Assembly (NCBI RefSeq): GCF_963921235.1
Contig: NC_086097.1
Coordinates: 83,950,001 to 84,014,000 of the forward strand
DNA length: 64,000 nucleotides
From: Mobula hypostoma
Taxonomy: Eukaryota
Direction of reading: 5' to 3'
Below the pieces are notes generated by a model. That model did no database searches, had not been told where the DNA came from, and saw only the letters and a program-made list of their open reading frames with translations. The position numbers were made by a program, and so were the translations under genes. Shown here in pieces: positions 2,749 to 58,649 of this stretch; within the stretch, counting starts at the first letter, position 1, and every line of letters begins with the position of its first letter.

Positions 2749-5647
2749 AGAAACATAGAAACATAGAAAATAGGTGCAGGAGTAGGCCATTCGGCCCTTC
2801 GAGCCTGCACCGCCATTTATTATGATCATGGCTGATCATCCAACTCAGAACCCAGCCTTCCCTCCATACCCCCTGACCCCTGTAGCCACAAGGGCCATAT
2901 CTAACTTCCTTTTAAACATAGCTAATGAACTGGCCTCAACAGTTTGCTGTGGCAGAGAATTCCACAGATTCACCACTCTCTGTGTGAAGAAGTTTTTCCT
3001 AACCTCGGTCCTAAAAGGCTTCCCCTCTATCCTCAAACTGTGACCCCTCGTTCTAGACCTCCCCAACATCGGGAACAATCTTCCCACATCTAGCCTGTCC
3101 AATCCCTTTAGGATCTTATACGTTTCAATCAGATCCCCCCTCAATCTTCTAAATTCCAACGAGTACAAGCCCAGTTCATCCAGTCTTTCTTCATATGAAA
3201 GACCTGCCATCCCAGGAATCAATCTGGTGAACCTTCTTTGTACTCCCTCTATGGCAAAGATGTCTTTCCTCAGATTAGGGGACCAAAACTGCACACAATA
3301 CTCCAGGTGTGGTCTCACCAAGGCCTTGTACAACTGCAGTAGTACCTCCCTGCTCCTGTACTCGAATCCTCTCGCTATAAATGCCAGCATACCATCCGCC
3401 TTTTTCACCGCCTGCTGTACCTGCATGCCCACTTTCAATGACTGGTGTATAATGACACCTGGGTCTCGTTGCACCTCCCCTTTTCCTAATCGGCCACCAT
3501 TCAGATAATAATCTGTTTTCCTATTTTTGCCACCAAAGTGGATAACTTCACATTTATCCACATTAAATTGCATCTGCCATGAGTTTGCCCACTCACCCAA
3601 CCTATCCAAGTCACCCTGCATCCTCTTAGCATCCTCCTCACTGCTAACACTGCCACCCAGCTTTGTGTCATCTGCAAACTTGGAGATGCTGCATTTAATT
3701 CCCTCATCCAAGTCATTAATATATATTGTAAACAACTGGGGTCCCAGCACTGAGCCTTGCGGTACCCCACTAGTCACCGCCTGCCATTCTGAAAAGGTCC
3801 CGTTTATTCCCACTCTTTGCTTCCTGTCTGCTAACCAATTCTCCACCCACACCAATACCTTACCCCCAATACCGTGTGCTTTAAGTTTGCACACTAATCT
3901 CCTGTGTGGGACCTTGTCAAAAGCCTTTTGAAAATCCAAATATACCACATCCACTGGTTCTCCCCTATCCACTCTACTAGTTACATCCTCAAAAAATTCT
4001 GTGAGATTCGACAGACATGATTTTCCTTTCACAAATCCATGCTGACTTTGTCCGATCATTTCACCGCTTTCCAAATGTGCTGTTATCACATCCTTGATAA
4101 CTGACTCCAGCAGTTTCCCCACCACCGACGTTAGGCTAACCGGCCTATAATTCCCCGGTTTCTCTCTCCCTCCTTTTTTAAAAAGTGGGGTTACATTAGC
4201 CACCCTCCAATCCTCAGGAACTAGTCCAGAATCTAACGAGTTTTGAAAAATTATCACTAATGCATCCACTATTTCTTGGGCCACTTCCTTAAGCACTCTG
4301 GGATGCAGACCATCTGGCCCTGGGGATTTATCTGCCTTCAATCCCTTCAATTTACCTAACACCACTTCCCTACTAACATGTATTTCGCTCAGTTCCTCCA
4401 TCTCACTGGACCCTCTGTCCCTTACTATTTCTGGAAGATTATTTATGTCCTCCTTAGTGAAGACAGAACCAAAGTAATTATTCAATTGGTCTGCCATGTC
4501 CTTGCTCCCCATAATCAATTCACCTGTTTCTGTTTGCAGGGGACCTACATTTGTCTTTATCAGTCTTTTCCTTTTTACATATCTATAAAAGCTTTTACAG
4601 TCTGTTTTTATGTTCTCTGCCAGTTTTCTCTCATAATCTTTTTTCCCCTTCCTAATTAAGCCCTTTGTCCTCCTCTGCTGAACTCTGAATTTCTCCCAGT
4701 CCTCAGGTGAGCCACTTTCTCTGGCTAATTTGTATGCTACTTCTTTGGAATTGATACTATCCCTAATTTCTCTTGTCAGCCACGGGTGCACTACCTTCCT
4801 TGATTTATTCTTTTGCCAAACTGGGATGAACAATTGTTGTAGTTCATCCATGCAACCTTTAAATGCCTGCCATTGCATATCCACCGTCAATCCTTGAAGT
4901 GTCATTTGCCAGTCTATCTTAGCTAATTCACGTCTCATACCTTCAAAGTTACCCCTCTTTAAGTTCAGAACCTTTGTTTCTGAATTAACTACGTCACTCT
5001 CCATGTTAATGAAGAATTCCACCATATTATGGTCACTCTTACCCAAGGGGCCTCTCACGACAAGATCGCTAATTAACCCTTCCTCATTGCTCAAAACCCA
5101 GTCCAGAATAGCCTGCTCTCTAGTCGGTTCCTCGACATGTTGGTTCAAAAAACCATCCCGCATACATTCCAAGAAATCCTCTTCCTCAGCACCTTTACCA
5201 ATTTGGTTCACCCAGTCTACATGTAGATTGAAGTCACCCATTATAACTGCTGTTCCTTTATTGCACACATTTCTAATTTCCTGTTTAATACCATCTCCGA
5301 CCTCACTACTACTGTTAGGCGGCCTGTACACAACTCCCACCAGCGTCTTCTGCCCCTTAGTGTTACGCAGCTCTACCCATATCGATTCCACATCTTCCCG
5401 GCTTATGTCCTTCCTTTCTATTGCGTTAATCTCTTTTTTAACCAGCAACGCCACCCCACCTCCCCTTCCTTCGTGTCTATCCCTCCTGAATATTGAATAT
5501 CCCTGAACGTTGAGCTCCCATCCCTGGTCACCCTGGAGCCATGTCTCTGTGATCCCAACTATATCATAATCATTAATAACAATCTGCACTTTCAATTCAT
5601 CCACCTTATTACGAATGCTCCTTGCATTGACACATAAAGCCTTCAGG
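2749..5647 (-). mobile_element. Young 5'-truncated CR1 LINE, copy A
   Basis: (TTCTATGT)n-type 3' tail at 2749-2768 and TSD GTATT (2744-2748, 5651-5655). It splits the Gypsy integrase motif SDNGPQY|TSEAF. Confidence 0.95.
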
Positions 5648-5670
5648 TCCGTATTGTGGTCCGTTGTCAC
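2845..5670 (-). CDS. CR1 ORF2 (APE endonuclease + reverse transcriptase), open frame, native start missing
   Basis: 941-aa stop-free frame with NARS, ITETW, GDFN, SDH (EN) and YRPVSL, LDFQKAFD, GVPQGSVLGP, FADD (RT). The first codons (GTG start) come from flanking Gypsy DNA. Confidence 0.9.
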   Translation of the reverse strand: MTTDHNTDLKALCVNARSIRNKVDELKVQIVINDYDIVGITETWLQGDQGWELNVQGYSIFRRDRHEGRGGGVALLVKKEINAIERKDISREDVESIWVELRNTKGQKTLVGVVYRPPNSSSEVGDGIKQEIRNVCNKGTAVIMGDFNLHVDWVNQIGKGAEEEDFLECMRDGFLNQHVEEPTREQAILDWVLSNEEGLISDLVVRGPLGKSDHNMVEFFINMESDVVNSETKVLNLKRGNFEGMRRELAKIDWQMTLQGLTVDMQWQAFKGCMDELQQLFIPVWQKNKSRKVVHPWLTREIRDSINSKEVAYKLARESGSPEDWEKFRVQQRRTKGLIRKGKKDYERKLAENIKTDCKSFYRYVKRKRLIKTNVGPLQTETGELIMGSKDMADQLNNYFGSVFTKEDINNLPEIVRDRGSSEMEELSEIHVSREVVLGKLKGLKADKSPGPDGLHPRVLKEVAQEIVDALVIIFQNSLDSGLVPEDWRVANVTPLFKKGGREKPGNYRPVSLTSVVGKLLESVIKDVITAHLESGEMIGQSQHGFVKGKSCLSNLTEFFEDVTSRVDRGEPVDVVYLDFQKAFDKVPHRRLVCKLKAHGIGGKVLVWVENWLADRKQRVGINGTFSEWQAVTSGVPQGSVLGPQLFTIYINDLDEGIKCSISKFADDTKLGGSVSSEEDAKRMQGDLDRLGEWANSWQMQFNVDKCEVIHFGGKNRKTDYYLNGGRLGKGEVQRDPGVIIHQSLKVGMQVQQAVKKADGMLAFIARGFEYRSREVLLQLYKALVRPHLEYCVQFWSPNLRKDIFAIEGVQRRFTRLIPGMAGLSYEERLDELGLYSLEFRRLRGDLIETYKILKGLDRLDVGRLFPMLGRSRTRGHSLRIEGKPFRTEVRKNFFTQRVVNLWNSLPQQTVEASSLAMFKRKLDMALVATGVRGYGGKAGF

Positions 5671-6410
5671 TCACAATTTATTCAGGTAAACTATTTCTGC
5701 TCAAGATAGTCTTCAGAGCAGAAACAGTCTTTTCTGAGGTGGTTGACTACATTAGTATGACCTCAGGCCACTTCAAATGAGCATCCACAATAATCAGAAA
5801 CATGGAGTCCATGAATGGCCCAGCTAAGTCAATATGTACTCTTTGTCATATCGGTGTTGGCCATTCCCACAGGTATAAGGGTCCCTATGGGGATGCATTT
5901 TGAACTTCTTGACAACACAAACAGCTTTTTGCCAAGTCTTCTATCTGTTTATCTAGTCACATGTTGCTCTGGGCAAGGCTCTTCATTTTGACTGTACCCA
6001 GGTGTCCTTCATGCAGTTTCCCTAACACTATGATACACAGTTTAGATGGAACAACAACAGGAGATCCAGCACATCACCATTCCTTGACATGCCGAACATT
6101 GGTTGCATCTCACTGAGAACTCTGGGAACATAGGATGACCATGAGCTGGCCATCCTTGCATGGTAATGTGATAGACTTTTGACAGTGTCAGGTCATTCCT
6201 TGTTTCTCTTTGTATTTCCAGATTTGTTACCAGCAATTGGTCCATCAATGTGTATGGAACACCTCTGCTGGGTCACAGAATGAAGACTTGCAGCAGTGGA
6301 AGATGTGACAAGCTGTCGACGTTGTTGTGTTGTTTGGTACCCTTGAGCTTTACGTCATGAGGGTGGTTCCTAGAAACAGTGCCCAATGTTGTAACTAGGT
6401 AGCAGACATC

Positions 6411-8117
6411 ATGGATAGAGAAATGGCTAACAGGCAGGAGGCAGCGAGTGGGAATAAAAGGGGCCTTTTCTGATTGACCATCAGTGACCAGTGGTGTTCC
6501 TCAGGGGTCAGTATTGGGACCGCTGCTTTTCACATCGTTTGTCAATGATTTCGATGATGGAATTGATAGCTTCGTTGGCAAAGTTTGTAGATTATACAAA
6601 GACAGGTGGAGGGATAGGTCGTGTTGAGGAAGCAACGCAATTGCCGCCGGATCTAGACAAATTGGAAAAATGGGCAAAGAAGTGATGGATGGAAAACAAG
6701 TGTTGGGAAATGTATGATAATGAATTTTGGTAAAAGGAACAATAGTGTGGACTATTATCTAAATGGAGAGCAGGTTCAAACATCAGAGGTGCAGATGGAT
6801 TTAGGAGTCCTTGTGCAAGGCTCCCAGAAGATTAATTTATAGGTTGAGCCTGTGGTAAAGAAGGCAAATGCAAAGTTATGATTACGATTATGAGGACATG
6901 CAGTCCCCTTTTATTGTCATTTAGTAATGCATTCATTAAGAAATGATAAAATGTTTTTCCAAAATGTTATCACGAAAACACATGACAAACCGACTTAAAA
7001 ACTAACAAAAACCACATAATTATAACATTTAGTTACAACAGTGCAAAGCAATACCGTAACTTGATAAGAACAGACCATGGCACAGAAAAAATCTCAAAGT
7101 CTCTCCAAAGTCCCATCATCTGACGCAGACGGTAAACCTTCAGCGCCGCCAACTTGCCTGTGCAGCATACTGGAAGCATTCGAACACAGTCCGACTCCGA
7201 GTCCGTCTGAAAAACTCTGAGCCTCTGACCCACCTCTTCAACACCGAGCAACCGAGCACCATCTCTGCCGAGCACTTCGACCCCAGCCCCGGCAACAGGC
7301 GATACACAAAGCCGAGGATTTGGGGCCTTCATCTCCGGAGATTCTCGATCGCACAGTAGCAGTGGCAGCGAAGCAAGCATTTCAGAAGTTACTCCAGATG
7401 TTCCTCTGCGCTTCTCACGGCTGTCTCTATCAAATCTGGATTGTGCACGGCCCCCTAGTTAACACATATCGATATCATTTGTTGGCATTTATTTCAAGGG
7501 GAATTGAATATAAAAGCAAGGAGATAATGCTGAGGCTTTATAAGACACTAGTCAGACTGCACTTGGAGTATTGTTAACAGTTTTGGGCCCCATATCTCTG
7601 AAAGAATGTGTTGCCATTGGAGAGAGTCCAGAGGAGGTTCACAAGGATGATTCCAGGAATGAAAGGGTTGACATACGAGGAGCGTTTGGCAGCTTTGGGC
7701 CTGTACTCACTGGAATTTAGAAGATTGCGTGGGGATTTCATTTAAACCTACTGACTGTTGAGAGGACTACATAAGGTGGACGTGGGAGAGGATGTTTTCT
7801 ATGGTGGGGGTACCCAGAAGTAAAGGGAACAGCCTCAAAATTGAAGGGGGGACCTTTTAGAAAAGAGATAAGGAGGAATTTTTTTAGCCAGAGAGTAGAA
7901 TCTGTGGAATGCTCTGCCACAGACTGCGGTGGATGTCAAGTCCGTGGGTATATTTAAGGTGAGAGTTGTTCGTTTACTGATCAGTCAGGGCATCAAAGGA
8001 TATGATGAGAAGACAGGTGTATAGGGTTGGGTGGGATCCAGGATCAGCCAAAATGGGATGGCAGAGCAGACTTAATGGGCTGAATGGCCTAATTCTGCTC
8101 CTCGGTCTTATGATTGT
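6411..8117 (+). mobile_element. Older degenerate CR1 3' fragment inside Gypsy 1
   Basis: Frameshifted RT/C-terminal motifs (GVPQGSVLG-like, AFISRGIEYKSKEIMLRLYKTLVRLHLEYC) and a CR1 3' UTR; Gypsy sequence resumes on both sides. Confidence 0.85.
6875..7478 (-). mobile_element. Non-autonomous retroelement with poly(A) signal and microsatellite tail, nested in the older CR1
   Basis: Interrupts the CR1 frame at KKANA|MLAFI; minus strand ends AATAAAAGGGGACTGCATGTCCTCATAATCGTAATC. Family not identified. Confidence 0.6.
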
Positions 8118-8574
8118 ATCACTGGAATTTCCTTCCTGGGATTGAAAATGGGCACAAGGGGCTGCTGTTATGTCACTAGCATAAACTTTTGCCCGTGGAA
8201 CTTCTTTATTCCCCATACTAGACTAAGGCCCTCTTGGTCGATCTGTGCATAGTTGCATTTTGCACTCATCAGTGATTTTGAAGCAAATGCAATCGGATGT
8301 TCAGATCCATCTTTCAAAGTGGGTGACAAAACAGCGCCAATGCCATAAGGGGACGTATCACACACCAGTCTGATGGGCAGGGATGTGTCATAATGGGTGA
8401 GCAGTTCATCTGATGTTATTATTATCTGTGTTTCTTTTAATGTTGTTTCACATCTTTCTGACCATTCCTACTTTGCTCCTGTTTGCAACAGTGTGTTCAA
8501 TGGGTGCAGCACTGTAGCAATGTTGGGGAGAAACCAATGGTAGTAGTTTACAAGGCCCAAGTATGATCTGAGTT

Positions 8575-11557
8575 ACATAGAAACATAGAAAATAGGTGCA
8601 GGAGTAGGCCATTCGGCCCTTCGAGCCTGCACCGCCATTTATTATGATCATGGCTGATCATCCAACTCAGAACCCAGCCTTCCCTCCATACCCCCTGACC
8701 CCTGTAGCCACAAGGGCCATATCTAACTTCCTTTTAAACATAGCTAATGAACTGGCCTCAACAGTTTGCTGTGGCAGAGAATTCCACAGATTCACCACTC
8801 TCTGTGTGAAGAAGTTTTTCCTAACCTCGGTCCTAAAAGGCTTCCCCTCTATCCTCAAACTGTGACCCCTCGTTCTAGACCTCCCCAACATCGGGAACAA
8901 TCTTCCTGCATCTAGCCTGTCCAATCCCTTTAGGATCTTATACGTTTCAATCAGATCCCCCCTCAATCTTCTAAATTCCAACGAGTACAAGCCCAGTTCA
9001 TCCAGTCTTTCTTCATATGAAAGACCTGCCATCCCAGGAATCAATCTGGTGAACCTTCTTTGTACTCCCTCTATGGCAAAGATGTCTTTCCTCAGATTAG
9101 GGGACCAAAACTGCACACAATACTCCAGGTGTGGTCTCACCAAGGCCTTGTACAACTGCAGTAGTACCTCCCTGCTCCTGTACTTGAATCCTCTCGCTAT
9201 AAATGCCAGCATACCGTTCGCCTTTTTCACCGCCTGCTGTACCTGCATGCCCACTTTCAATGACTGGTGTATAATGACACCCAGGTCTCGTTGCACCTCC
9301 CCTTTTCCTAATCGGCCACCATTCAGATAATAATCTGTTTTCCTATTTTTGCCACCAAAGTGGATAACTTCACATTTATCCACATTAAATTGCATCTGCC
9401 ATGAGTTTGCCCACTCACCCAACCTATCCAAGTCACCCTGCATCCTCTTAGCATCCTCCTCACTGCTAACACTGCCACCCAGCTTCGTGTCATCCGCAAA
9501 CTTGGAGATGCTGCATTTAATTCCCTCATCCAAGTCATTAATATATATTGTAAACAACTGGGGTCCCAGCACTGAGCCTTGCGGTACCCCACTAGTCACC
9601 GCCTGCCATTCTGAAAAGGTCCCGTTTATTCCCACTCTTTGCTTCCTGTCTGCTAACCAATTCTCCACCCACACCAATACCTTACCCCCAATACCGTGTG
9701 CTTTAAGTTTGCACACTAATCTCCTATGTGGGACCTTGTCAAAAGCCTTTTGAAAATCCAAATATACCACATCCACTGGTTCTCCCCTATCCACTCTACT
9801 AGTTACATCCTCAAAAAATTCTATGAGATTCGTCAGACATGATTTTCCTTTCACAAATCCATGCTGACTTTGTCCGATCATTTCACCGCTTTCCAAATGT
9901 GCTGTTATCACATCCTTGATAACTGACTCCAGCAGTTTCCCCACCACCGACGTTAGGCTAACCGGCCTATAATTCCCCGGTTTCTCTCTCCCTCCTTTTT
10001 TAAAAAGTGGGGTTACATTAGCCACCCTCCAATCCTCAGGAACTAGTCCAGAATCTAACGAGTTTTGAAAAATTATCACTAATGCATCCACTATTTCTTG
10101 GGCCACTTCCTTAAGCACTCTGGGATGCAGACCATCTGGCCCTGGGGATTTATCTGCCTTCAATCCCTTCAATTTACCTAACACCACTTCCCTACTAACA
10201 TGTATTTCGCTCAGTTCCTCCATCTCACTGGACCCTCTGTCCCTTACTATTTCTGGAAGATTATTTATGTCCTCCTTAGTGAAGACAGAACCAAAGTAAT
10301 TATTCAATTGGTCTGCCATGTCCTTGCTCCCCATAATCAATTCACCTGTTTCTGTTTGCAGGGGACCTACATTTGTCTTTATCAGTCTTTTCCTTTTTAC
10401 ATATCTATAAAAGCTTTTACAGTCCGTTTTTATGTTCTCTGCCAGTTTTCTCTCATAATCTTTTTTCCCCTTCCTAATTAAGCCCTTTGTCCTCCTCTGC
10501 TGAACTCTGAATTTCTCCCAGTCCTCAGGTGAGCCACTTTCTCTGGCTAATTTGTATGCTACTTCTTTGGAATTGATACTATCCCTAATTTCTCTTGTCA
10601 GCCACGGGTGCACTACCTTCCTTGATTTATTCTTTTGCCAAACTGGGATGAACAATTGTTGTAGTTCATCCATGCAACCTTTAAATGCCTGCCATTGCAT
10701 ATCCACCGTCAATCCTTGAAGTGTCATTTGCCAGTCTATCTTAGCTAATTCATGTCTCATACCTTCAAAGTTACCCCTCTTTAAGTTCAGAACCTTTGTT
10801 TCTGAATTAACTACGTCACTCTCCATGTTAATGAAGAATTCCACCATATTATGGTCACTCTTACCCAAGGGGCCTCTCACGACAAGATCGCTAATTAACC
10901 CTTCCTCATTGCTCAAAACCCAGTCCAGAATAGCCTGCTCTCTAGTCGGTTCCTCGACATGTTGGTTCAAAAAACCATCCCGCATACATTCCAAGAAATC
11001 CTCTTCCTCAGCACCTTTACCAATTTGGTTCACCCAGTCTACATGTAGATTGAAGTCACCCATTATAACTGCTGTTCCTTTATTGCACACATTTCTAATT
11101 TCCTGTTTAATACCATCTCCGACCTCACTACTACTGTTAGGTGGCCTGTACACAACTCCCACCAGCGTCTTCTGCCCCTTAGTGTTACGCAGCTCTACCC
11201 ATATCGATTCCACATCTTCCCGGCTTATGTCCTTCCTTTCTATTGCGTTAATCTCTTTTTTAACCAGCAACGCCACCCCACCTCCCCTTCCTTCGTGTCT
11301 ATCCCTCCTGAATATTGAATATCCCTGAACGTTGAGCTCCCATCCCTGGTCACCCTGGAGCCATGTCTCTGTGATCCCAACTATATCATAATCATTAATA
11401 ACAATCTGCACTTTCAATTCATCCACCTTATTACGAATGCTCCTTGCATTGACACATAAAGCCTTCAGGCACTCTTTTACAACTCTCTTAGCCCTTTTTA
11501 ATGCTTGCCCTGGATTTGTCGGCCTGCCACTTTTACTTTTCCCCTTTGTACTTTTTG
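8575..11557 (-). mobile_element. Young 5'-truncated CR1 LINE, copy B
   Basis: Near-identical to copy A but 88 nt longer at the 5' end. TSD CTGAGTT (8568-8574, 11558-11564) splits the Gypsy NVSQL|RSYLGLVNY region. Confidence 0.95.
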
Positions 11558-11573
11558 CTGAGTTGTGACACAT
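8667..11573 (-). CDS. CR1 ORF2 (APE endonuclease + reverse transcriptase), open frame
   Basis: 968-aa stop-free frame with the same EN and RT motifs as copy A, including FADD. The ATG at 11573-11571 lies in Gypsy flank. Confidence 0.9.
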   Translation of the reverse strand: MCHNSAKSTKGKSKSGRPTNPGQALKRAKRVVKECLKALCVNARSIRNKVDELKVQIVINDYDIVGITETWLQGDQGWELNVQGYSIFRRDRHEGRGGGVALLVKKEINAIERKDISREDVESIWVELRNTKGQKTLVGVVYRPPNSSSEVGDGIKQEIRNVCNKGTAVIMGDFNLHVDWVNQIGKGAEEEDFLECMRDGFLNQHVEEPTREQAILDWVLSNEEGLISDLVVRGPLGKSDHNMVEFFINMESDVVNSETKVLNLKRGNFEGMRHELAKIDWQMTLQGLTVDMQWQAFKGCMDELQQLFIPVWQKNKSRKVVHPWLTREIRDSINSKEVAYKLARESGSPEDWEKFRVQQRRTKGLIRKGKKDYERKLAENIKTDCKSFYRYVKRKRLIKTNVGPLQTETGELIMGSKDMADQLNNYFGSVFTKEDINNLPEIVRDRGSSEMEELSEIHVSREVVLGKLKGLKADKSPGPDGLHPRVLKEVAQEIVDALVIIFQNSLDSGLVPEDWRVANVTPLFKKGGREKPGNYRPVSLTSVVGKLLESVIKDVITAHLESGEMIGQSQHGFVKGKSCLTNLIEFFEDVTSRVDRGEPVDVVYLDFQKAFDKVPHRRLVCKLKAHGIGGKVLVWVENWLADRKQRVGINGTFSEWQAVTSGVPQGSVLGPQLFTIYINDLDEGIKCSISKFADDTKLGGSVSSEEDAKRMQGDLDRLGEWANSWQMQFNVDKCEVIHFGGKNRKTDYYLNGGRLGKGEVQRDLGVIIHQSLKVGMQVQQAVKKANGMLAFIARGFKYRSREVLLQLYKALVRPHLEYCVQFWSPNLRKDIFAIEGVQRRFTRLIPGMAGLSYEERLDELGLYSLEFRRLRGDLIETYKILKGLDRLDAGRLFPMLGRSRTRGHSLRIEGKPFRTEVRKNFFTQRVVNLWNSLPQQTVEASSLAMFKRKLDMALVATGVRGYGGKAGF

Positions 11574-11655
11574 TCTCTAGTTTGGTTGCCTGTAGCACTG
11601 CACCAGTCTTCTCTTGTGACTTATGGAAGCCATGCTTGTCAATGACATGTTCACA

Positions 11656-17322: not shown

Positions 17323-17951
17323 ACAACACACATCAAATTTGCTGGTGAACGCAGCAGGCCAGGCAGCATCTCTAGGAAGAGGTACAGTCGACGTTTCAGG
17401 CCCAGACCCTTCGTCAGGACTAACTGAAGGAAAAGTTAGTAAAAGATTTGAAAGTGGGAGGGGGAGGGGAGATCCAAAATGATAGGAGAAGGTAGGAGGG
17501 GGAGGGATGGAGCCAAGAGCTGGACAGGTGATTGGCAAAGGGGATATGAGAGGATCATGGGACAGGAGGTCCGGGGAGTAAGACAAGGAGGGGGGGAAAC
17601 CAGAGGATGGGCAAGGGGTATAGTCAGAGGGACAGAGGGAGAAAAAGGAGAGTGAGAGAAAGAATGTGTGTATAAAAATAAATAACGGATGGGGTACGAG
17701 GGGGAGGTGGGGCATTAGCGGAAGTTAGAGAAGTCGATGTTCATGCCACCAGGTTGGAGGCTACCCAGACGGAGTATAAAGTGTTGTTCCTCCAACCTGA
17801 GTGTGGCTTCATCTTTACAGTAGAGGAGGCCATGGATAGACATGTCAGAATGGGAACGGGATGTGTAAGTTGCTGGTGAACGCAGCAGGCCAGGCAGCAT
17901 CTCTAGGAAGAGGTACAGTCGACGTTTCAGGCCGAGACCCTTCGTCAGGAC
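17323..17951 (-). mobile_element. Penelope-like element 3' part with a partial tandem pseudo-LTR
   Basis: GIY-YIG C-terminal peptide HGLLYCKDEATLRLEEQHFILRLGSLQPGGMNIDF. 17868-17952 repeats 17337-17421. 11-bp TSD TTCTTAAACTA (17312-17322, 17952-17962). Confidence 0.88.
17386..17421 (-). ncRNA. Minimal type-I hammerhead ribozyme motif
   Basis: Minus strand AGUC-CUGACGA-AGG(GUCUGGG)CCU-GAAA-CG-UC/GACU: complete catalytic core, stems I and II, palindromic ACGU stem III. Confidence 0.75.
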
Positions 17952-17952
17952 T
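17917..17952 (-). ncRNA. Minimal type-I hammerhead ribozyme motif
   Basis: AGUC-CUGACGA-AGG(GUCUCGG)CCU-GAAA-CG-UC/GACU on the minus strand. Confidence 0.75.
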
Positions 17953-18480
17953 TCTTAAACTATATTGATTCATCAACCTTTATCAATTCAATACTTTCAA
18001 TCCTTCCATTCAAACTCTTTTATTCTATAATTCCCGTTTTCATTTGCATCAGCTAAATGTGGGAGCCAGTAACCATGCCACTTAGCAAAAATTATGTACG
18101 ATCAAGGAAATTTATGGTCTACATCAGCTATATACAAACCAATCTAGAAAAGGTAATCTACGATCATCTAAACGACATCATGATCAGTATAGGAAACACA
18201 TTATCTTTCAGTATCTGGACTGATAGTTGCTACAGTATCATTTGTTAACAGGGAATGTCTAGACTAGATATTGCACAATTCAGGAGTCAGGATAGATTGA
18301 GTTGAATTTCGTAGCTTTATGCCCTGTGTTCACTAAATTGATCTGCTCCAATCAGCAATATTGAGAAAATAATATTCTTGTCACACAACAGGAATTCTGC
18401 AGATGCTGGAAATTCATGCAACACACATCAAAGTTGCTGGTGAACGCAGCAGGCCAGGCAGCATCTGTAGGAAGAGGTGC

Positions 18481-18516
18481 AGTCGACGTTTCAGGCCGAG
18501 ACCCTTCGTCAGGACT
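18481..18516 (-). ncRNA. Minimal type-I hammerhead ribozyme motif
   Basis: Exact reverse complement of the 36-nt motif at 18695-18730. Confidence 0.75.
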
Positions 18517-18694
18517 AACTGAAGGAAGAGTGAGTAAGGGATTTGAAAGTTGGAGGGGCAGAGGGAGATCCAAAATGATAGGAGAAGACAGGAGGGGGAG
18601 GGATAGAGCCAAGAGCTGGACAGGTGATAGGCAAAAGGGGATACGAGAGGATCATGGGACAGGAGGTCCAGGAAGAAACTCACTTCCTTCAGTT

Positions 18695-18730
18695 AGTCCT
18701 GACGAAGGGTCTCGGCCTGAAACGTCGACT
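18695..18730 (+). ncRNA. Minimal type-I hammerhead ribozyme motif
   Basis: AGTC CTGACGA AGGGTCTCGGCCT GAAA CG TC GACT; predicted cleavage after C18726. Confidence 0.78.
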
Positions 18731-19081
18731 GCTCCTCTTCCTACAGATGCTGCCTGGCCTGCTGTGTTCACCAACAACTTTGATGTGTGTTGCTTGGATT
18801 TCCAGCATCTGCAGAATTCCTGTTGTTTGCATTTAAATTCACTACTGCGAAGCCTCTTCCGGTGATGCATACACTGAAGAAGTTTAGATCCTCTCTTTGA
18901 AACCCCCCCCCCACTTGTCTTTCTTCCCGGACCTCCTGTCTCATGATCCCCTCGTATCCCCTTTTGCCTATCACCTGTCCAGCTCTTGGCTCTATCCCTC
19001 CCCCTCCTGTCTTCTCCTATCATTTTGGATCTCCCCCTCTCCCTCCAACTTTCAAATCCCTTACTCACTCTTCCTTCAGTT

Positions 19082-19117
19082 AGTCCTGACGAAGGGTCTC
19101 GGCCTGAAACGTCGACT
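19082..19117 (+). ncRNA. Minimal type-I hammerhead ribozyme motif
   Basis: Identical 36-nt motif; predicted cleavage after C19113. Confidence 0.78.
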
Positions 19118-20089
19118 GCACCTCTTCCTACAGATGCTTTGGTAGGGTTTTGGTTACGTAGGTCTGTTGTACACATTGAAGAGCTAGAGGAAATAGTGTT
19201 GTATGGGTGAATCCACTCTTTTTTTGTAACACACATACACTGCTCTTTATGGAAACTTATTTAAACCACTCAACTCTGATATTGCTACCCTCCTACTCCC
19301 TCAATCTCATCCATGCTCTTAGTTGGCCTTGTTCTCTCAGTGTTCTCACACTAAAGGTTATGATTGCTGGTCAGATCACAGACTTTCGTCCACATATTCA
19401 TACCCTCCTCCAGAGCTACCACCTTGATAATCTGCAGAAAAGACATGTCCTTCCTTAGTAGCTTCACAATTTAACACTTATTTCCAATTTCATCTCCTCT
19501 GGCTCTTAACTTCTGTTACTGTCAGTACTCAACTTTACCAATAGGTCTTCTCTGACAAAGGCAGCAAATGGCTGTTAGATTTGCTCCCTTGCAGCTCCAG
19601 CTGATCCAACACCAGCTACTCTGGTTTCATCCCACATCCTAAAGGGATTATACAGATTGGTAGATTTGTTGGCCACAGCACAAAGGCAGTAATGTAGCAG
19701 AATCTGGAAAAGCTGACGAGGAAATAAAATAGGTTTAGAGTAGTGTATTTAGTGTATGATTAACACAAGTTAGTGCTTGATAGTTTGTGCAAAGCAATGG
19801 TCCAAGGGACCTGTTTCCATGTTGTGTGACTATAATTAAATTCACTCACTTTCATTGTTTTCCTGGTTTCTATTTTAACTTACTTATCGCAGAACTTGAC
19901 CCTACAATAACAACTAGTAACCATGCCTTTGAAAACAAAAATGCCTATAATTCAAAGGACTTAATAGAGAACAAGATTTGCTCATGCTTGCTCAATTAAA
20001 CTTAACCTCGACTGATTATTCCTGCTCAGTTCCAACAGCATTTTGTATGTACTACTCCAGATTTCCAACATCTGCAGAATCTCACCTGT

Positions 20090-20750
20090 TTAATCAGAAT
20101 AGGCTTATTATTATCACATGTACCAAAATACAATGAGTCTTGTCTTGCATACTGTTCCTACAGCGCTAAAGCTATAAATTGCAGTGCACATAAACAATGA
20201 AATGCAATATCATAAAGAGGCAGATTGTGAGGTTGAGTCTATCTTATACAAGAGGTTCATTCAAGAGTCTGATAACAGCAGGACAGAAGTGTAGTTGAGG
20301 CAAACAACAGGAATTCTGCAGATGCTGGAAATTCAAGCAACATACATCAAAGTTGCTGGTGAACGCAGCAGGCCAAGCAGCATCTATAGGAAGAGGTGCA
20401 GTCGACGTTTCAGGCCGAGACCCTGCGAGGCCTGAAACGTCGACTGCACCTCTTCCTATAGATGCTGCTTGGCCTGCTGCGTTCACCAGCAACTTTGAGG
20501 TAGTTGAGGCATGTACCTTCTGCCCAATGGGAGAGTGAGAAGGTAGAACGTCTCGGAGGGTGAGATCATTGATTATGCTGGCTACTATATTGAGGCAGCA
20601 AGTGCAGGCAGAATCCATGGAGGGAAAGCAGGTTTCCATGATATGCTGCGTTGTGTGCATAACTTTATGTTTTCTTGAAGTTACAGGCAGAGCAGTTGCC
20701 ATACTATGGCATGATGCATTAATAAAAATTGCTAAGGGTCAATGGGGCCA
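20090..20750 (-). mobile_element. Degenerate Rex1/Babar-like LINE 3' fragment hosting the Penelope hairpin
   Basis: ASIINDLT..., FCPAVIRLLNEPL C-terminal-like peptide and an AATAATAAGCCTATTCTGATT tail on the minus strand. Confidence 0.6.
20303..20499. mobile_element. Penelope-derived fold-back insertion (70-bp perfect inverted repeat)
   Basis: Arms 20347-20416 and 20429-20498; 12-bp TSD GTAGTTGAGGCA (20291-20302, 20500-20511). Confidence 0.88.
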
Positions 20751-21305: not shown

Positions 21306-21569
21306 AACCGAGATGTTGTCACTAGGACAGTCAGATGACAATAGAGAACTTGAACATGAACCATATAAAATGGAGGAGGAAGACTCGGGGTGCCACTAGG
21401 AACGCCGATCCATGCATACAGAAGCCACAGGAAAGGGACTTACCGGCCCACAAACTCATCCCTAACCCCATCGTCCAACTACTACATAGCCTAGGGTATC
21501 GACATTTGTTTCAACATTCCTCACAAAACCCGAGGTGTAATCCAGTACCCTCCACCACCCCCTTCCACC

Positions 21570-21709: not shown

Positions 21710-23346
21710 GTAATGTCGGGAGGTCTGGCCGTTATCGGGGGGCAGAGGGAGCGAGGGTGGGCTCACCGGTGGTTGGATGTTTTGTCGATGCGAACAGAGA
21801 AACAGATCTTCGGTGAGGGCCTTCCTCTCCACCTTCTCGGGAACGCAGGCGGGAGGGTCGGCCTCCGGGACTTCGGGCGCTCAGCGACTGCGTTCAGATG
21901 TTGTCCCATCACCAAATGGCCCAATGAATGGTGGTGGTGGGGCATCTAACTGGGAATGGGAAATGCTGTTTTTATGTCCAGTTTTTTCGGTGGGGGAGGT
22001 GGTTGGAGGTGGCGGTTTTAACCGTTTCTCATGTTGTGGCTTACTTACTGCTGATGAACCACAATAAGGCGCAGTACCTTGTGGAGGCTCGGGCTGGCCA
22101 GGTGCAACCCTCCCCCCCCCCCCCCGCCAACCGCCACTAAAAGTCAGAAGAAGAATCCCCTCTCCCAAGTTTGCTCGATTCCTTTCCGAGAGAGTCAGGC
22201 AGCATAGAAACGAGCCTTCGGCCCACAATAAATACAATAATTCTGCATGATTTTTACCGAGAACGATTTCATTCTGGGCACATTCCTTTTTGCTCCCGGA
22301 ATCAACGCTTGCCTACGCGCTGAGGGCAATGGATAGTGTCCATTTGAACCTCTTAACTCGCACCTCTGCGATGTGTAAAGGAACTCGTGGTCGCAGACAA
22401 TGTGAAGGCAAGGCATAAGCTCTGGAGACTTGGATTGCTGGAGCTGTAGGCAGTAGTTCGTACTACTTTGCCTTTGAGTTGAGTGCGGACGTTCATGCAT
22501 TTCAGCAGTTTGATATAATTGAGTTTGGATTTGAGACCTTATGACACAGCAGCTAATGTCCAATGATTGCTCCTCAGGCTAGTGGATATGTAATTTGATC
22601 GTGGGTTTTCGTTCCAACAGCATGCTATTGTTTTTTTTTCAAGCCAGATTGTTACACGTAAAGGTATTGGAACTTTGTCATGGTCGTCTTTGTCTGGTTG
22701 CTCACGTCATAAAAAAGTACTCGAGGACCCATCTGACCCAAGCAGCTAAATCCTTCTGATTCCTCTGTTAATTAGGAACCAAGCATCTTTGTACTTGGTT
22801 TGTAAAAGCATTGCTTTCTAATGCCTACTGGCCGTAATTTCACACATTCCTCCATTGATACTCAATTTGACACTGCTGTCAACTGTACTAAGTTCTATTG
22901 TCTTCTTCCAGTCCTTCCTGAGGTGTATGGAGGAATTTAAGGTTGGGGGGGGGTTATATGGGAGGCAGCGTTTAAGGGTCGGCACCACACTGTGCTGTAC
23001 TATTCTATGTTCCTGGCCCAGTTTCCTTTTTAGGAGTATGCTGCTGCATGACAGCCTGAGCTCCTTTCCCATACTACTGGTTTCAATAACACGTACCCTC
23101 TGTGTTATTGTATTTACTAACTGCTCTCTATCTACATTTTAAGCACTGGCTAACTGGAATAAGAATAACCCTCAAGCTTTTTTTGTTGTTCATTTGATTA
23201 CAACTGTCTAGTCATTTTGTCTTTGATATAGTTCTTTGGGTCTTAATGCCAAAGCTGTGTTATTTTTCATTCCTTTAAGCCATAACAACCTATTAGGAAT
23301 GGTCACAACTAATCTGTAAAGAAGACCTACCTAATTGATCATGCAA

Positions 23347-23567
23347 CATACATCAAAGTTGCTGGTGAACGCAGCAGGCCAAGCAGCATCTATAGGAAGA
23401 GGCGCAGTCGACGTTTCAGGCCGAGACCCTTCGTCCTGAAGGGTCTCGGCCTGAAACGTCGACTGCGCCTCTTCCTATAGATGCTGCTTGGCCTGCTGCG
23501 TTCACCAGCAACTTTGATGTATGTTGCTTGAATTTCCAGCATCTGCAGAATTCCTGTTGTTTACATT
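23347..23567. mobile_element. Penelope-derived fold-back insertion (90-bp perfect inverted repeat) in SRSF5 copy 1 intron 1
   Basis: Arms 23343-23432 and 23438-23527 with loop GTCCT; 15-bp TSD TAATTGATCATGCAA (23332-23346, 23568-23582). Confidence 0.9.
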
Positions 23568-23884
23568 TAATTGATCATGCAAGTTTTTTTTTGTAACATC
23601 ACTTTATATTGGATTTTCTCACTGGAGATAGTTTCCATCTACCAATCAGCTACTTCTGGATCATTTTAATCTCAATTTCTACTCGATTTTTGATTGTCAT
23701 GGTAATTAAGGTGTACTTTATGTAACTTTTTTTGTTATGAATGATATGACTCCGTTTTGATTATAAAGCAGCTTGTTTTTTGCTCCACTGAAAGTAATGT
23801 CACAGTAGATCTGATTTGGTCTGCATTCAACTTTCAAACTACTTTGTAGTGATTATTTTTTTCTTTGGAATATTATCAGATACA

Positions 23885-34050: not shown

Positions 34051-34399
34051 TGTGTCCATTCGGCAGGATGTACAGAAACCTATAGACCCACACCACCTGA
34101 TTGAAGAACAAACATCAGGATTCTTGAAATGACTTGCACAATCACTATAGACCAAATCTTGCAGTGTCATGAAGTGACTTACCTTTTTTAATTGCACTCT
34201 TTTGTTTTTGCACTTTATCTTGTTACTGCCTTGTATCATTGAGTGCTGTCTGTACCTGTGTACCTATAAGGTTTCTGCAAGCGAAGTTTTGGAATGTGTT
34301 TATAACTCATCTTACACCATGGCAATGAATTTGAGTTTACTCCAAGTGTCCATCACTCAGCTGAAGTTAAAGGAACCACACTAACATCTTCAATTCAAG

Positions 34400-36172
34400 A
34401 AATTTTCAGATGCTGAAAATCCGAAGCAATACACACAAAATGCTTAAGGAACTCAGGTCAGGCAGCATCTATGGAATGGAATTAACAGTCGATGCTTCGG
34501 GCTGGAACACCTCTTCAGGACTGGAAAGGACCAGGGAAAATGCCAGAAGGTGGGGGGAGAAGGAGGATAGCTAGAAGGTGATAGGTGAAGCCAGGTAGGT
34601 AGGAAAGATAAACAGCTAGAGAAGAATGAATTTTATAGGAAAGGACAGTGGACTACAGGAGAAAGGGAATGAGTAGAGCACCCAGAGGGAGTCGATAGGC
34701 AGCTGAAAAGAGGTACAAAGTTTGAGTGGGGAATAGGAGGAGAGGGGAGGAGGGAGTCAATTTTTTTTTACTGGAAGGAGAAATCAATATTCATGCCATC
34801 AGGTTGGAGGCTATCCTAGATAGAATATAAGGTGTTACTCCTCCACCCATCGTGGCACAAGAGAAGGCTGTGGACTGGAACAGGAATTAAAATGTTTGGC
34901 CACCAGGAGTTTCCGCTTTTGGCGAATGGAGCAGAGGTGCTCCACAAAGCAGTCCACCAATTTACAATAGGGCTCACCAATGCAGAGGAAGCCGCAATGG
35001 GAAGACCAGATACAATAGACAGCCCCAGCAAATTCACAGCTGAAGTGTTGCCTCACCTGGAAGGACTGTTGAGAGCCCTGAATAGAAGTAAGGATGTAAA
35101 AGGGCAGGTGTAGCAACTCGGCTGCTTTGGAGATTAGTGGGGAGGGATGAATGGACAAGGGGACCATGGAGGGAGCAATCCCTGTGGAAAGCAGGAGGTG
35201 GGGGGGGAAGTAAAGATGTATTTGGTGGCAAGATCCCTTTGGAGATAGCAGAAATTGGATGCAGAAGTTCATGGGGTGGTATGTAAGGATAAGAAGAATT
35301 CTATCACAGTTAAGGCAGCAGGAATACAGAGTGAGCATGGATGTTTGGTAAATAAATGGAGGAGACACGGGTGAGGGCAGTTTCAATGGTGGAGGAAGAG
35401 AAACCCTGTTCTTCGAAGGAGGAGGACACCTCAGATGTTCTGGAAATGAAAGCCACATCCTGAGAACAGATGCGGTGGAGATGAAGCAACTGAGAAAAGG
35501 ATATAGCACTTTTTTTTACAGGAGATAGGGTGGAAAGAGATATAGTCAAGATAACCATAGGGATATAAAAGATGTTGGTAAACAATTCGTCTCCAGAGAT
35601 GAAGATAGAAAGATTGAGAAAGGGAAGGAAGATGTCAGAGATTGGCTATGAATTTAAGGGTGAGCATTGGAGGGTGGGGTAAAGTTGGAGGCAAAGCTGA
35701 TGAAATTGATGAGCTCAGCATGGGAGCATATAGCAGCACCAGTGTAGTGGTGTAGCGGAGGAAGAATTGGGGAGCATTACCGGGGATGGCTTGGAACATG
35801 GACTGTTCTACGTAGCCTACGAAAAGACATAGATGGGGCCCATGGCTATCCCTCGAGTCTGGAGAAAAAGTGAGGAGCCTAAGGAAAAATTGTTGAGGGT
35901 GTGGGCCAGTTCTACCAAACGGAGGAAGCTGGTAGTGGAGAAAGAAGCAGAGAACCTTAAAGCCTTATTGATGGGGATAGAAGAGTATAGGGACTGGACA
36001 TCCGTGGTGAGAATGAGACGGTCAGGGCCAGGGAATTGAAAGTTAATGAGGAGATGAGAAGTGTCGCGGATGTAGAAGGGAAAAGACTGAACCAAGGGAG
36101 ATAGAATGAAGTCAAGGTATGAGGACACAAGCTCAATGGGGCAGGAACAGGCAGAGGCAATGGGTCTACCTA
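34400..36172 (-). mobile_element. Degenerate Penelope-like element (RT + GIY-YIG + pseudo-LTR)
   Basis: GRPIASACSCPIELVSSYLD..., TDVQSLYSSIP, QTRGIAMG (PLE RT); AVYCIWSSHCGFLCIGE (GIY-YIG); decayed hammerhead region near 34486-34522. Confidence 0.88.
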
Positions 36173-57480: not shown

Positions 57481-57712
57481 TTGCTGCCTGAACATAGAAG
57501 GGACTGTGGGATTCTAGCATTTAACTGTCATTCATTATTTAGGGCACTCCTCTGTTTTCGTGGATGCTTGCAAAGAAGAAGAATTTCAGGAAGTATATTG
57601 TATACATTTCTCTGACATTAAATGTACCCATTGAACCTATTGATATGGTCATTATTAATAATCGAACCTGAGTGAATCTAACAGTATTATAAAAGAGTTG
57701 AAGCAGGTACTG

Positions 57713-58649
57713 CAAACAGCAGGAATTCTGCAGATGCTGGAAATTCAAGCAACACACATCAAAGTTGCTGGTGAACACAGCAGGCCAGGCAGAATCTCTA
57801 GGAAGAGGTACAGTCGACGTTTCAGGCCGAGACCGTTCGTCAGGACTAACTGAAGGAAGAGTTAGTAAGAGATTTGAAAGTGGGAGGGGGAGGGGGAGAT
57901 CCAAAATGATAGGAGAAGACAGGAGGGGGAGGGATGGAGCCAAGAGCTGGACAGGTGATTGGCAAAAGGGATACGAGAGGATCATGGGACAGGAGGTCCG
58001 GGAAGAAAGACAAGGAGGGGGGAACCCAGAGGATGGGCAAGGGGTATAGTCAGAGGGACAGAGGGAGAAAAAGGAGAGTGAGAGAAAGAATGTGTGTATA
58101 AAAATAAATAACAGATGGGGTACGAGGGGGAGGTGGGGCATTAGCAGAAGTTAGAGAAGTCGATGTTCATGCCATCAGGTTGGAGACTACCCAGACGCAA
58201 TATAAGGTGTTGTTCCTCCAACCTGAGTGTGGCTTCATCTTTACAGTAGAGGAGGCCGTGGATAGACATGTCAGAATGGAATGGGATGTGGAATTAAAAT
58301 GTGTGGCCACTGGGAGATCCTGCTTTCTCTGGCGGACAGAGCGTAGGTGTTCAGCAAAGCGGTCTGCCGTCTGCGTCGGGTCTCGCCAATATATAGAAGG
58401 CCGCATTGGGAGTATTGGACGCAGTATATTACCCCAGTCGACTCACAGGTGAAGTGTCGCCTCACCTGGAAGGACTGTTTGGGGCCCTGAATGGTGGTAA
58501 GGGAGGAAGTGTAAGGGCATGTGTAGCACTTGTTCCGCTTACAAGGATAAGTGCCAGGAGGGAGATCAGTGGGGGGGACGAATGGACAAGGGAATCGCGT
58601 AGGGAGTGATCCCTGCGGAAAGCAAAGGGGGGGGAGGGTAAGAGGGAAA
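57713..58649 (-). mobile_element. 5'-truncated Penelope-like element (GIY-YIG + pseudo-LTR)
   Basis: GVIYCVQYSQCGLLYIGETRR and DRFAEHLRSVR peptides; 13-bp TSD GAAGC(A/G)GGTACTG (57700-57712, 58650-58662). Confidence 0.9.
57812..57847 (-). ncRNA. Minimal hammerhead motif with one stem II substitution
   Basis: AGUC-CUGACGA-ACGGUCUCGGCCU-GAAA-CG-UC/GACU. Confidence 0.6.

What the first reader, a model, noticed from the sequence alone, without database searches (positions are those of the whole stretch)
18695..19117. Tandem minimal hammerhead ribozymes defining a 387-nt non-coding, retrozyme-like unit
Seen: two identical motifs AGUC-CUGACGA-AGG(loop)CCU-GAAA-CG-UC/GACU with the full conserved core. 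Stem III has no loop, only the palindrome ACGU, so a monomer cannot fold, but two copies can pair as a double hammerhead. Cleavage after 18726 and 19113 would release 387 nt. Known: Penelope-like elements carry minimal type-I hammerheads, and metazoan retrozymes are short hammerhead-bounded repeats that yield circular RNAs. Inference: this could be a retrozyme arising from a Penelope end, 2.5 kb upstream of and sense to SRSF5.
Basis: partly seen in the sequence, partly recalled or inferred. Interest (0 to 1): 0.75.

Follow-up and report, generated by a model that had tools for sequence, protein, structure and literature searches.

The report
One-off gutted Penelope copy, two hammerheads
The two hammerhead-ribozyme motifs 387 bases apart are real, but they are the two ends of one copy of a very common Penelope-type jumping gene with its middle missing, joined at a point found nowhere else in the genome; it is likely a dead copying accident, predicted to be misfolded and likely read from the wrong strand, rather than a spreading ribozyme circle.

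Summary
Observation confirmed: two identical minimal type-I hammerheads (18695-18730, 19082-19117), loopless ACGU stem III, cut sites 387 nt apart. The retrozyme reading is not supported. The 36-nt motif has 32,886 exact copies in this genome. It is the pLTR ribozyme of a 3.5-kb RT+GIY-YIG Penelope-like element. The 387 nt are the parent's first 174 nt joined to its last ~209 nt. That junction occurs once in 3.48 Gb, against 554 copies of the unbroken sequence. 17 of 86 sibling loci hold similar short hammerhead pairs, each with a different junction. An inverted pLTR adjoins it, as is usual for these elements. The cleaving fold is predicted ~21 kcal/mol above an inactive rod, far more with the inverted arm. 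Stems show only one-sided changes. One contig from another organism shows the lost tail, a 13-bp target duplication, and a GT-AG splice implying antisense transcription from the SR-gene promoter. No cleavage or circle was tested. The scan reported this same kind of unit at other places in this genome before. Ordinary; interest 0.17.

The parts
18375..18387 (.). Left copy of a likely 13-bp target-site duplication; the right copy is missing in this allele
   Evidence: Occurs once in the window; the same 13 nt follow an element tail end just before the right flank in one contig of run X4 (table 7)
18382..18678 (-). Inverted, 5'-truncated pLTR copy with full tail (parent positions 3318-3511 plus 1-103); its outer few bases overlap the target duplication
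   Evidence: 97.3% to natural full-length copy L031; 97% and 96% complementary to 18920-19138 and 18683-18829
18481..18516 (-). Third minimal hammerhead motif, in the inverted arm
18679..18900 (+). End of upstream pLTR, tail region and start of the element body (parent -50 to +174); includes the parent's first ATG at 18865, closed by a stop after 11 codons
   Evidence: 95% to L031; sequence; translation of parent
18695..18730 (+). Minimal type-I hammerhead 1; predicted cut after 18726
18900..18905 (+). Locus-private junction: parent +174 joined to about 3303, about 3.1 kb (the RT-endonuclease gene) absent; no GT-AG signals
   Evidence: one match in the genome
18905..19138 (+). 3' UTR / downstream pLTR (parent 3303-3511 plus 1-25); ends early, at +25
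   Evidence: 97% to L031; 29 of 29 closest copies end at +58 to +113
19082..19117 (+). Minimal type-I hammerhead 2; predicted cut after 19113
19147..19184 (-). Unique right flank; likely start of exon 2 of a spliced transcript running away from the SR gene into the insertion (acceptor AG ends at 19184)
   Evidence: one 106-nt contig of run X4, depth 192.8; polypyrimidine tract plus AG on the minus strand
21444..21472 (-). Likely end of exon 1 of that divergent transcript (donor GTAAGT from 21443), at the edge of the SR-gene CpG island
   Evidence: loose end of the same contig matches here; donor and CpG o/e

Best explanation
This is a single insertion of an abundant protein-coding Penelope-like retrotransposon in which the first 174 and the last ~209 bases of the element are joined with the 3.1-kb middle absent, likely because the element's reverse transcriptase stopped early and restarted near the front of its own RNA, and it is predicted to be inert. 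Shown: the parent (3,511 nt from ribozyme to ribozyme, one ~1,040-codon RT + GIY-YIG frame), the mapping of every piece, the inverted pLTR, and the uniqueness of the junction. Inferred sequence of events: (1) the endonuclease nicked both target strands 13 bp apart; (2) from one nick, copying began in the tail (~+63), passed the uncleaved ribozyme, stopped ~210 nt into the pLTR, resumed at about +174 to +191 on an element RNA and ran through the upstream ribozyme to -50; (3) from the other nick a second copy began at ~+103 and became the inverted arm; (4) the two were joined head to head; (5) later ~51 nt (tail end plus right target duplication) were lost in this allele. The two hammerheads are passengers of the pLTR. 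On a + strand RNA they are predicted to pair into an inactive rod or with the inverted arm. The one transcript-like record reads the minus strand, where only one hammerhead is in sense.
For: 32,886 exact motif copies. 14 of 16 longer loci show a ribozyme ~3.4-3.7 kb downstream of the 5' body, and four have an unbroken 1,041-1,055-codon frame. RVT_1 and GIY-YIG hits in order. Piece-by-piece map at 95-97%. Junction 1 vs 554 unbroken; only this locus spans 1-387 among 40 scored candidates. In 87 mapped loci, 26 (this one included) jump from the body to the 3' region; all 26 junctions differ, 16 of the other 25 donors fall at +211 to +301, and several carry extra bases or 1-5 nt microhomology. 29 of 29 closest copies end at +58-77 (20) or +100-113 (9) and none at the cut site, matching the two internal start sites and uncleaved template reported for an anole element (PMC11167929). 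Partial tandems with an inverted truncated copy and a one-sided tail are the textbook layout (PMC8557442; PMC3846280). Folding: +20.7 to +20.9 kcal/mol for the double hammerhead without the arm, about +351 with it. Target duplication and antisense splice.
Against: This junction's donor (+174, or +191 on an alternative parse) lies just outside the +211 to +301 cluster, so a restart is not proven for this copy. The energy model has no term for the catalytic core and I ran no active-ribozyme control; protein help switched on the anole ribozyme. The target duplication and the antisense splice rest on one 106-nt contig from another organism, in a run only guessed to be RNA. Both Pfam hits are below the curated cut-offs (23.9 vs 29.6; 21.4 vs 22.6). 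One sibling junction (310 nt) does recur at two places, so short units of this family can be re-made or re-copied. The assembly may lack other copies.
Confidence: 0.8

Rival explanations
1. Same inert element, but it inserted full length (inverted pLTR + pLTR-ORF-pLTR) and lost the 3.1-kb middle later by a DNA deletion.
For: This allele has probably suffered one later deletion already (right end at +25, while the X4 contig keeps the +63 end and the target duplication). The donor lies outside the sibling cluster. A microhomology-mediated internal deletion is described in a rotifer copy (PMC3846280).
Against: Sibling junctions are strongly non-random (16 of 25 donors within 91 nt, most acceptors in the last 200 nt), which random deletion would not give. 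Sibling dimers such as L015 and L019 sit whole inside target duplications (read). The junction has no long homology.
Confidence: 0.12
2. A retrozyme at birth: a + strand transcript from the pLTR promoter or by read-through folds, with help from the element's protein, into the double hammerhead, releases 387 nt, and this is ligated into a circle that the element's enzyme could copy elsewhere.
For: Both cores are intact and identical, and the nested double-hammerhead pairing is possible. Minimal hammerheads cleave weakly as dimers (PMC4209133). Vertebrate non-LTR retrozymes derive from pLTRs and average 363 bp in the one cartilaginous fish sampled (bioRxiv 10.64898/2026.07.22.740005). Single-site multimers (222 nt x3 junctions) and a 310-nt junction at two sites exist in this family.
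Against: No second copy of the junction. Only 50 nt of pLTR lie upstream of ribozyme 1, and any longer + transcript includes the inverted arm, which pairs over both ribozymes. The circle is not self-paired beyond chance (z +0.16, 45% paired). Only 1 of 9 frog dimers cleaved in vitro. The one transcript-like record is antisense.
Confidence: 0.05
3. The unit was copied from an existing circular or spliced RNA that already had this junction, whose source locus is lost or unassembled.
For: A sibling 310-nt junction has a GT donor and the AG acceptor before the ribozyme and recurs at two sites. The insertion is slightly longer than one unit, as copying round a circle would give.
Against: This junction has neither GT nor AG, and no source locus was found. 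More-than-unit length is also what a restart gives.
Confidence: 0.03

Closest known systems
EN+ Penelope-like elements, Neptune/Nematis type, with minimal hammerheads in the pLTR (Cervera and de la Pena 2014, PMC4209133; Craig et al. 2021, PMC8557442)
   Same: One RT + C-terminal GIY-YIG frame with a C-X4-C-X2-C linker in the parent; direct and inverted pLTRs; 35-40-nt tail; heavy 5' truncation; loopless palindromic stem III; extra base before G10.1.
   Different: This copy lacks the gene. The young subfamily has U at 11.1 (G-U closing pair) where the older one has C. Copy number is higher than the 4,000-9,000 motifs reported there for coelacanth and frog.
Poseidon element of Anolis (Frangieh et al. 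2024, PMC11167929)
   Same: Two 3'-end classes downstream of the ribozyme; none of 29 close copies ends at the cut site; both-strand priming fits the inverted arm.
   Different: Different clade. Here the main end classes lie before the first ATG (+139) and a further restart zone is inferred 70-160 nt inside the frame.
Metazoan non-LTR retrozymes (Cervera and de la Pena 2020, PMC7229834; Li et al. 2026, bioRxiv 10.64898/2026.07.22.740005)
   Same: Size in the 150-450 range, non-coding, bounded by type-I hammerheads, derived from a pLTR. It might pass the loose computational definition in the preprint if called as a tandem repeat.
   Different: Single locus, two ribozymes but only about 1.2 units, minimal rather than canonical ribozyme, no strong self-pairing, no RNA shown.

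Membership tests
Penelope-like element (EN+) derived insertion | Parent with one frame encoding RT and C-terminal GIY-YIG endonuclease | tested here: met
   1,041-1,043-codon frames; RVT_1 in 3 of 3 and GIY-YIG in 2 of 3 at E<0.001, all below curated cut-offs
Penelope-like element (EN+) derived insertion | pLTRs in partial tandem, with an adjacent inverted truncated copy | tested here: met
Penelope-like element (EN+) derived insertion | 30-40-bp tail at one end; short target duplication | tested here: met
   End classes +58-77 and +100-113; left end at ~+103; the 13-bp duplication is seen only through one contig of another organism
Neptune/Nematis clade | CX2-5CxxC linker before GIY-YIG; placement by RT phylogeny | tested here: inconclusive
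   C-X4-C-X2-C motif present in P0001 (motif); no tree was built
Minimal type-I hammerhead (PLE type) | Conserved core, stems I and II, palindromic 15.2-16.2 | tested here: met
Minimal type-I hammerhead (PLE type) | Covariation in stems across families | tested here: inconclusive
   Versus 29 older-subfamily copies only pair-preserving one-sided changes (U-G to C-G in 26 of 29; G-U to G-C in 22 of 29); no two-sided change; one older family only
Minimal type-I hammerhead (PLE type) | Dimer-dependent self-cleavage | not testable with these tools
   Folding predicts an inactive rod; needs a bench assay
Non-LTR retrozyme | Same unit dispersed at several loci | tested here: not met
   Junction once in the genome
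Non-LTR retrozyme | Tandem repeats of a 150-450-nt hammerhead-bearing unit | tested here: not met
   One unit plus 48 nt before and 25 nt after; two ribozymes but not two full units
Non-LTR retrozyme | Highly self-paired circular RNA | tested here: not met
   Circular MFE -60.8 vs -61.5 +/- 4.6 for 60 shuffles; prediction only
Non-LTR retrozyme | Accumulates as linear and circular RNA | not testable with these tools
   Only assembled contigs were on offer
Non-LTR retrozyme | Non-coding | tested here: met
   The parent's ATG at 18865 is closed after 11 codons (sequence)

The most novel reading that the evidence does not exclude
Restart accidents of the Penelope enzyme continually mint hammerhead-bounded short units (about a fifth of body-bearing copies sampled), and this one is a retrozyme at the moment of birth: with the element's protein it cleaves twice and circularises, and only units that escape an inverted arm or have splice-made junctions, like the 310-nt sibling found at two sites, go on to spread. 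The genome would then hold every stage from accident to family.
Probability: 0.06. Interest if true: 0.55.

Novelty: new member of a known kind. Interest (0 to 1): 0.17.

Why it matters
As a single locus it matters little: it is one of likely a hundred or more private rearrangements of a common retrotransposon (extrapolated from 17 of 86 sampled loci and at least 554 body-bearing copies). As a set, such junctions map where the enzyme restarts (+211 to +301) and offer natural dimer constructs for the open question whether Penelope minimal hammerheads cleave in cells and seed retrozymes. The antisense SR-gene transcript running into a ~220-bp near-perfect hairpin could be a source of double-stranded RNA, which is a separate and untested point.

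Tried and rejected
Rfam at gathering thresholds: 0 hits in the window; uninformative for minimal hammerheads. A genome-wide count of ribozyme pairs about 387 nt apart could not be had; a DNA search with the whole unit and sampled loci stand in for it, so the number of such pairs is an extrapolation. Sequencing runs: no RNA holder on record was listed and none held half the words. Laying four runs on the insertion gave only the family's repeat signal and no piece spanning it; this says nothing on expression of this copy. Run X23 laid nothing on the right flank, and X19 and X24 did not cover 19125-19384. Splicing as the origin of this junction was rejected (no GT or AG). A target duplication was not visible in the window alone. 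One comparison (left arm vs middle copy) was out of register and is ignored; one search gives that identity. The exon join was out of phase and the third exon too; only the first two exons are used. The long frames overlapping the locus are by-products of the repeat and were not pursued. The earlier-findings look-up near this place returned nothing.

Full report
1. Observation. The sequence and a motif scan confirm two identical minimal type-I hammerheads on + at 18695-18730 and 19082-19117. Each has the full core, 5-bp stem I potential and only ACGT in place of stem III; the predicted cuts are 387 nt apart. Four more complete motifs lie on the minus strand of the window, one of them in a 297-nt inverted copy that abuts the finding on the left. 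Rfam gives no hit at gathering thresholds. The exact 36-mer occurs 16,386 + 16,500 = 32,886 times in the 3.48-Gb genome, the control pattern 0 times. A variant with C instead of U at 11.1 occurs 6,207 times (31-mer).

2. The parent. A search with the middle of the unit returned 40 scored places of 1,294 candidates; 39 matched only up to window 18900. I fetched 16 of them as 9-kb stretches. 14 show a ribozyme 3.4-3.7 kb downstream of the 5' body, and four hold an unbroken frame of 1,041-1,055 codons. Three of these frames were scanned: RVT_1 in 3 of 3 and GIY-YIG in 2 of 3 at E<0.001, all under the curated cut-offs. The translation shows the RT motifs and a C-X4-C-X2-C linker before the GIY-YIG motif, which PMC8557442 (passages) gives as the mark of Neptune and Nematis elements; I built no tree. 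In the natural copy L031 the cut-to-cut length is 3,511 nt with the first ATG at +139.

3. Anatomy of this locus. Against L031: 18382-18678 (-) = 3318-3511 + 1-103; 18679-18900 (+) = -50 to +174; 18905-19138 (+) = 3303-3511 + 1-25; identities 95-97%. So the 387-nt unit is the front and the back of the parent with 3.1 kb missing. The junction has no GT or AG and carries a few extra bases. It can also be read as +174, a 14-nt skip between two TGA triplets, +188-191, then a CC overlap into the C-run (my parse, inferred). Direct plus inverted pLTRs with a one-sided tail are the standard layout of these insertions (PMC8557442 passages; PMC3846280 passages).

4. Is the unit a family? No. The junction pattern matches once exactly and once with up to two mismatches, both this locus; the unbroken sequence at the same point matches 554 times. 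A search with all 387 nt scored 40 of 4,347 candidates, and only this locus covered 1-387. I then mapped 89 body-bearing loci: 29 (this locus included, one duplicate dropped) and 60 of the first 100 places listed, taken in order on C1 and C2 except L140, which I picked for its tandem matches. Two gave no anchor. Of 87, 50 run on to the edge of the stretch, 26 jump from the body to the 3' region, 5 carry a shared ~210-nt internal duplication, and 6 do something else. All 26 junctions differ. 18 of them (17 of the other 86) leave two or more intact ribozymes 222-1,462 nt apart. Of the other 25 donors, 16 lie at +211 to +301; the sample cannot hold donors much below +170. Two multimers were followed up. 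The 222-nt junction occurs three times, all in one array.

5. How it likely arose. The 29 closest other copies end 58-77 (20) or 100-113 (9) nt after the cut site and none at it. This matches PMC11167929 (main text): reverse transcription of an anole element starts at two internal sites that define the tail, both target strands are cut and extended, uncleaved RNA is the main template, and the ribozyme cuts only with protein present. I infer one insertion event with priming from both nicks, an early stop and a restart near the front of the RNA. In run X4 one 106-nt contig covers 19147-19184 (2 other letters). Before it stand the element's +63 tail end and 13 nt identical to window 18375-18387. 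So the orthologous allele keeps the tail and a 13-bp target duplication, and this allele likely lost about 51 nt later. A later DNA deletion of a full-length copy remains a rival for the middle junction.

6. Would it cleave? The nested double hammerhead can be drawn. For 18679-19138 its ensemble lies 20.7-20.9 kcal/mol above the free ensemble, whose best fold is a rod in which core GACG pairs with the CGUC cut site. With the inverted arm included the gap is about 351 kcal/mol. A monomer forms the same inactive hairpin. These are secondary-structure energies with no active-ribozyme control. The 387-nt circle folds no better than 60 shuffles (-60.8 vs -61.5 +/- 4.6), unlike the highly self-paired retrozyme circles in PMC7229834 (part 2 of 6 read). 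Against 29 of 30 older-subfamily loci (one gave no motif), the stems change on one side only: U-G to C-G in 26, G-U to G-C in 22. Position 7 varies, as expected. The conserved register, an extra base then G10.1-C11.1, is that of PMC4209133 (parts 1-2 of 4), which also reports low activity even as dimers. In the preprint 10.64898/2026.07.22.740005 (parts 1-3 of 5) 1 of 9 frog dimers cleaved. Its supplements were not available and may list this family. PMC6765202 was seen as passages; the Lunse et al. paper only as a title in its reference list.

7. The neighbouring gene. An SR-protein gene starts in the CpG island about 2.5 kb downstream on + ('SRSF5' is recalled, the best PDB hit is an SRSF6 variant). 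Its promoter points away from the unit. The same X4 contig continues beyond 19184 into window 21445 onward, and the skipped 2,260 nt begin GTAAGT and end with a pyrimidine tract and AG on the minus strand. This implies a spliced divergent transcript that enters the insertion antisense to both ribozymes. On that strand only the 18481-18516 motif is in sense, and it is predicted fully paired. This rests on one contig from another organism in a run guessed to be RNA; contigs do not show strand, the splice signals do. Nothing here shows expression of the + strand, for or against.

8. Known kinds and novelty. It is a derivative of an EN+ Penelope-like element with the published minimal hammerhead: membership met. 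It is laid out like a non-LTR retrozyme unit but fails dispersal, tandem units and self-pairing, so it is not filed as one. That retrozymes derive from pLTRs is already argued in the preprint. I ran three paper searches; none was aimed at this family by name, so I make no claim that the family is undescribed. The scan has reported similar units elsewhere in this genome with the same general verdict; these notes are unchecked and are not counted as support.

9. Verdict. Real motifs, ordinary cause: a private, likely inert, gutted Penelope insertion. Interest 0.17; the chance that it yields a circle is about 0.05.

Noticed in passing
L140 / G000:C2:157816561-157817514 and L175 / G000:C50:58412484-58412817: A 310-nt hammerhead-to-hammerhead unit whose junction fits GT-AG splicing occurs four times at one site and twice at another with different flanks; units differ by 0-1 nt within L140 and 4-5 nt between sites. 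A better retrozyme candidate than this locus.
   Followed up: partly
L005 / G000:C18:47363020-47363486: Single-site array of three 222-nt units with four hammerheads plus an inverted arm; the junction is found nowhere else; GTCCAACAAATGA stands on both sides like a target duplication.
   Followed up: partly
window 19147-19184 and 21444-21472, minus strand: Likely spliced divergent non-coding transcript from the SR-gene CpG island (intron 21443-19184, GT-AG), running into the inverted-repeat insertion; could form a ~220-bp hairpin.
   Followed up: partly
L022, L105, L123, L136, L139: Five of 26 junctions resume at parent position ~3480, the first base of stem I of the ribozyme, often with extra A/T bases; a preferred stop point.
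   Followed up: no
L007, L024, L029, L087, L129: A subfamily of the parent carries the same ~210-nt tandem duplication inside the frame (989 back to 778).
   Followed up: no
window 20300-20501 and 23339-23570: Two short head-to-head palindromic insertions of the same pLTR tip, one upstream of and one in the first intron of the SR gene.
   Followed up: no
window 17324-17952 and 57711-58643 (minus): Further 5'-truncated copies of the same element, 92-97% identical to L031.
   Followed up: partly
window 34396-36166 (minus): Decayed copy of an older Penelope subfamily (64% to L031 over 1.5 kb) with A at position 7 and C at 11.1 of the ribozyme.
   Followed up: partly
window 2845-5670 and 8667-11576 (minus): Two nearly identical intact ~950-codon endonuclease/RT frames of a LINE (CR1-like by recall) about 5.9 kb apart: a very young family or a local duplication.
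   Followed up: no
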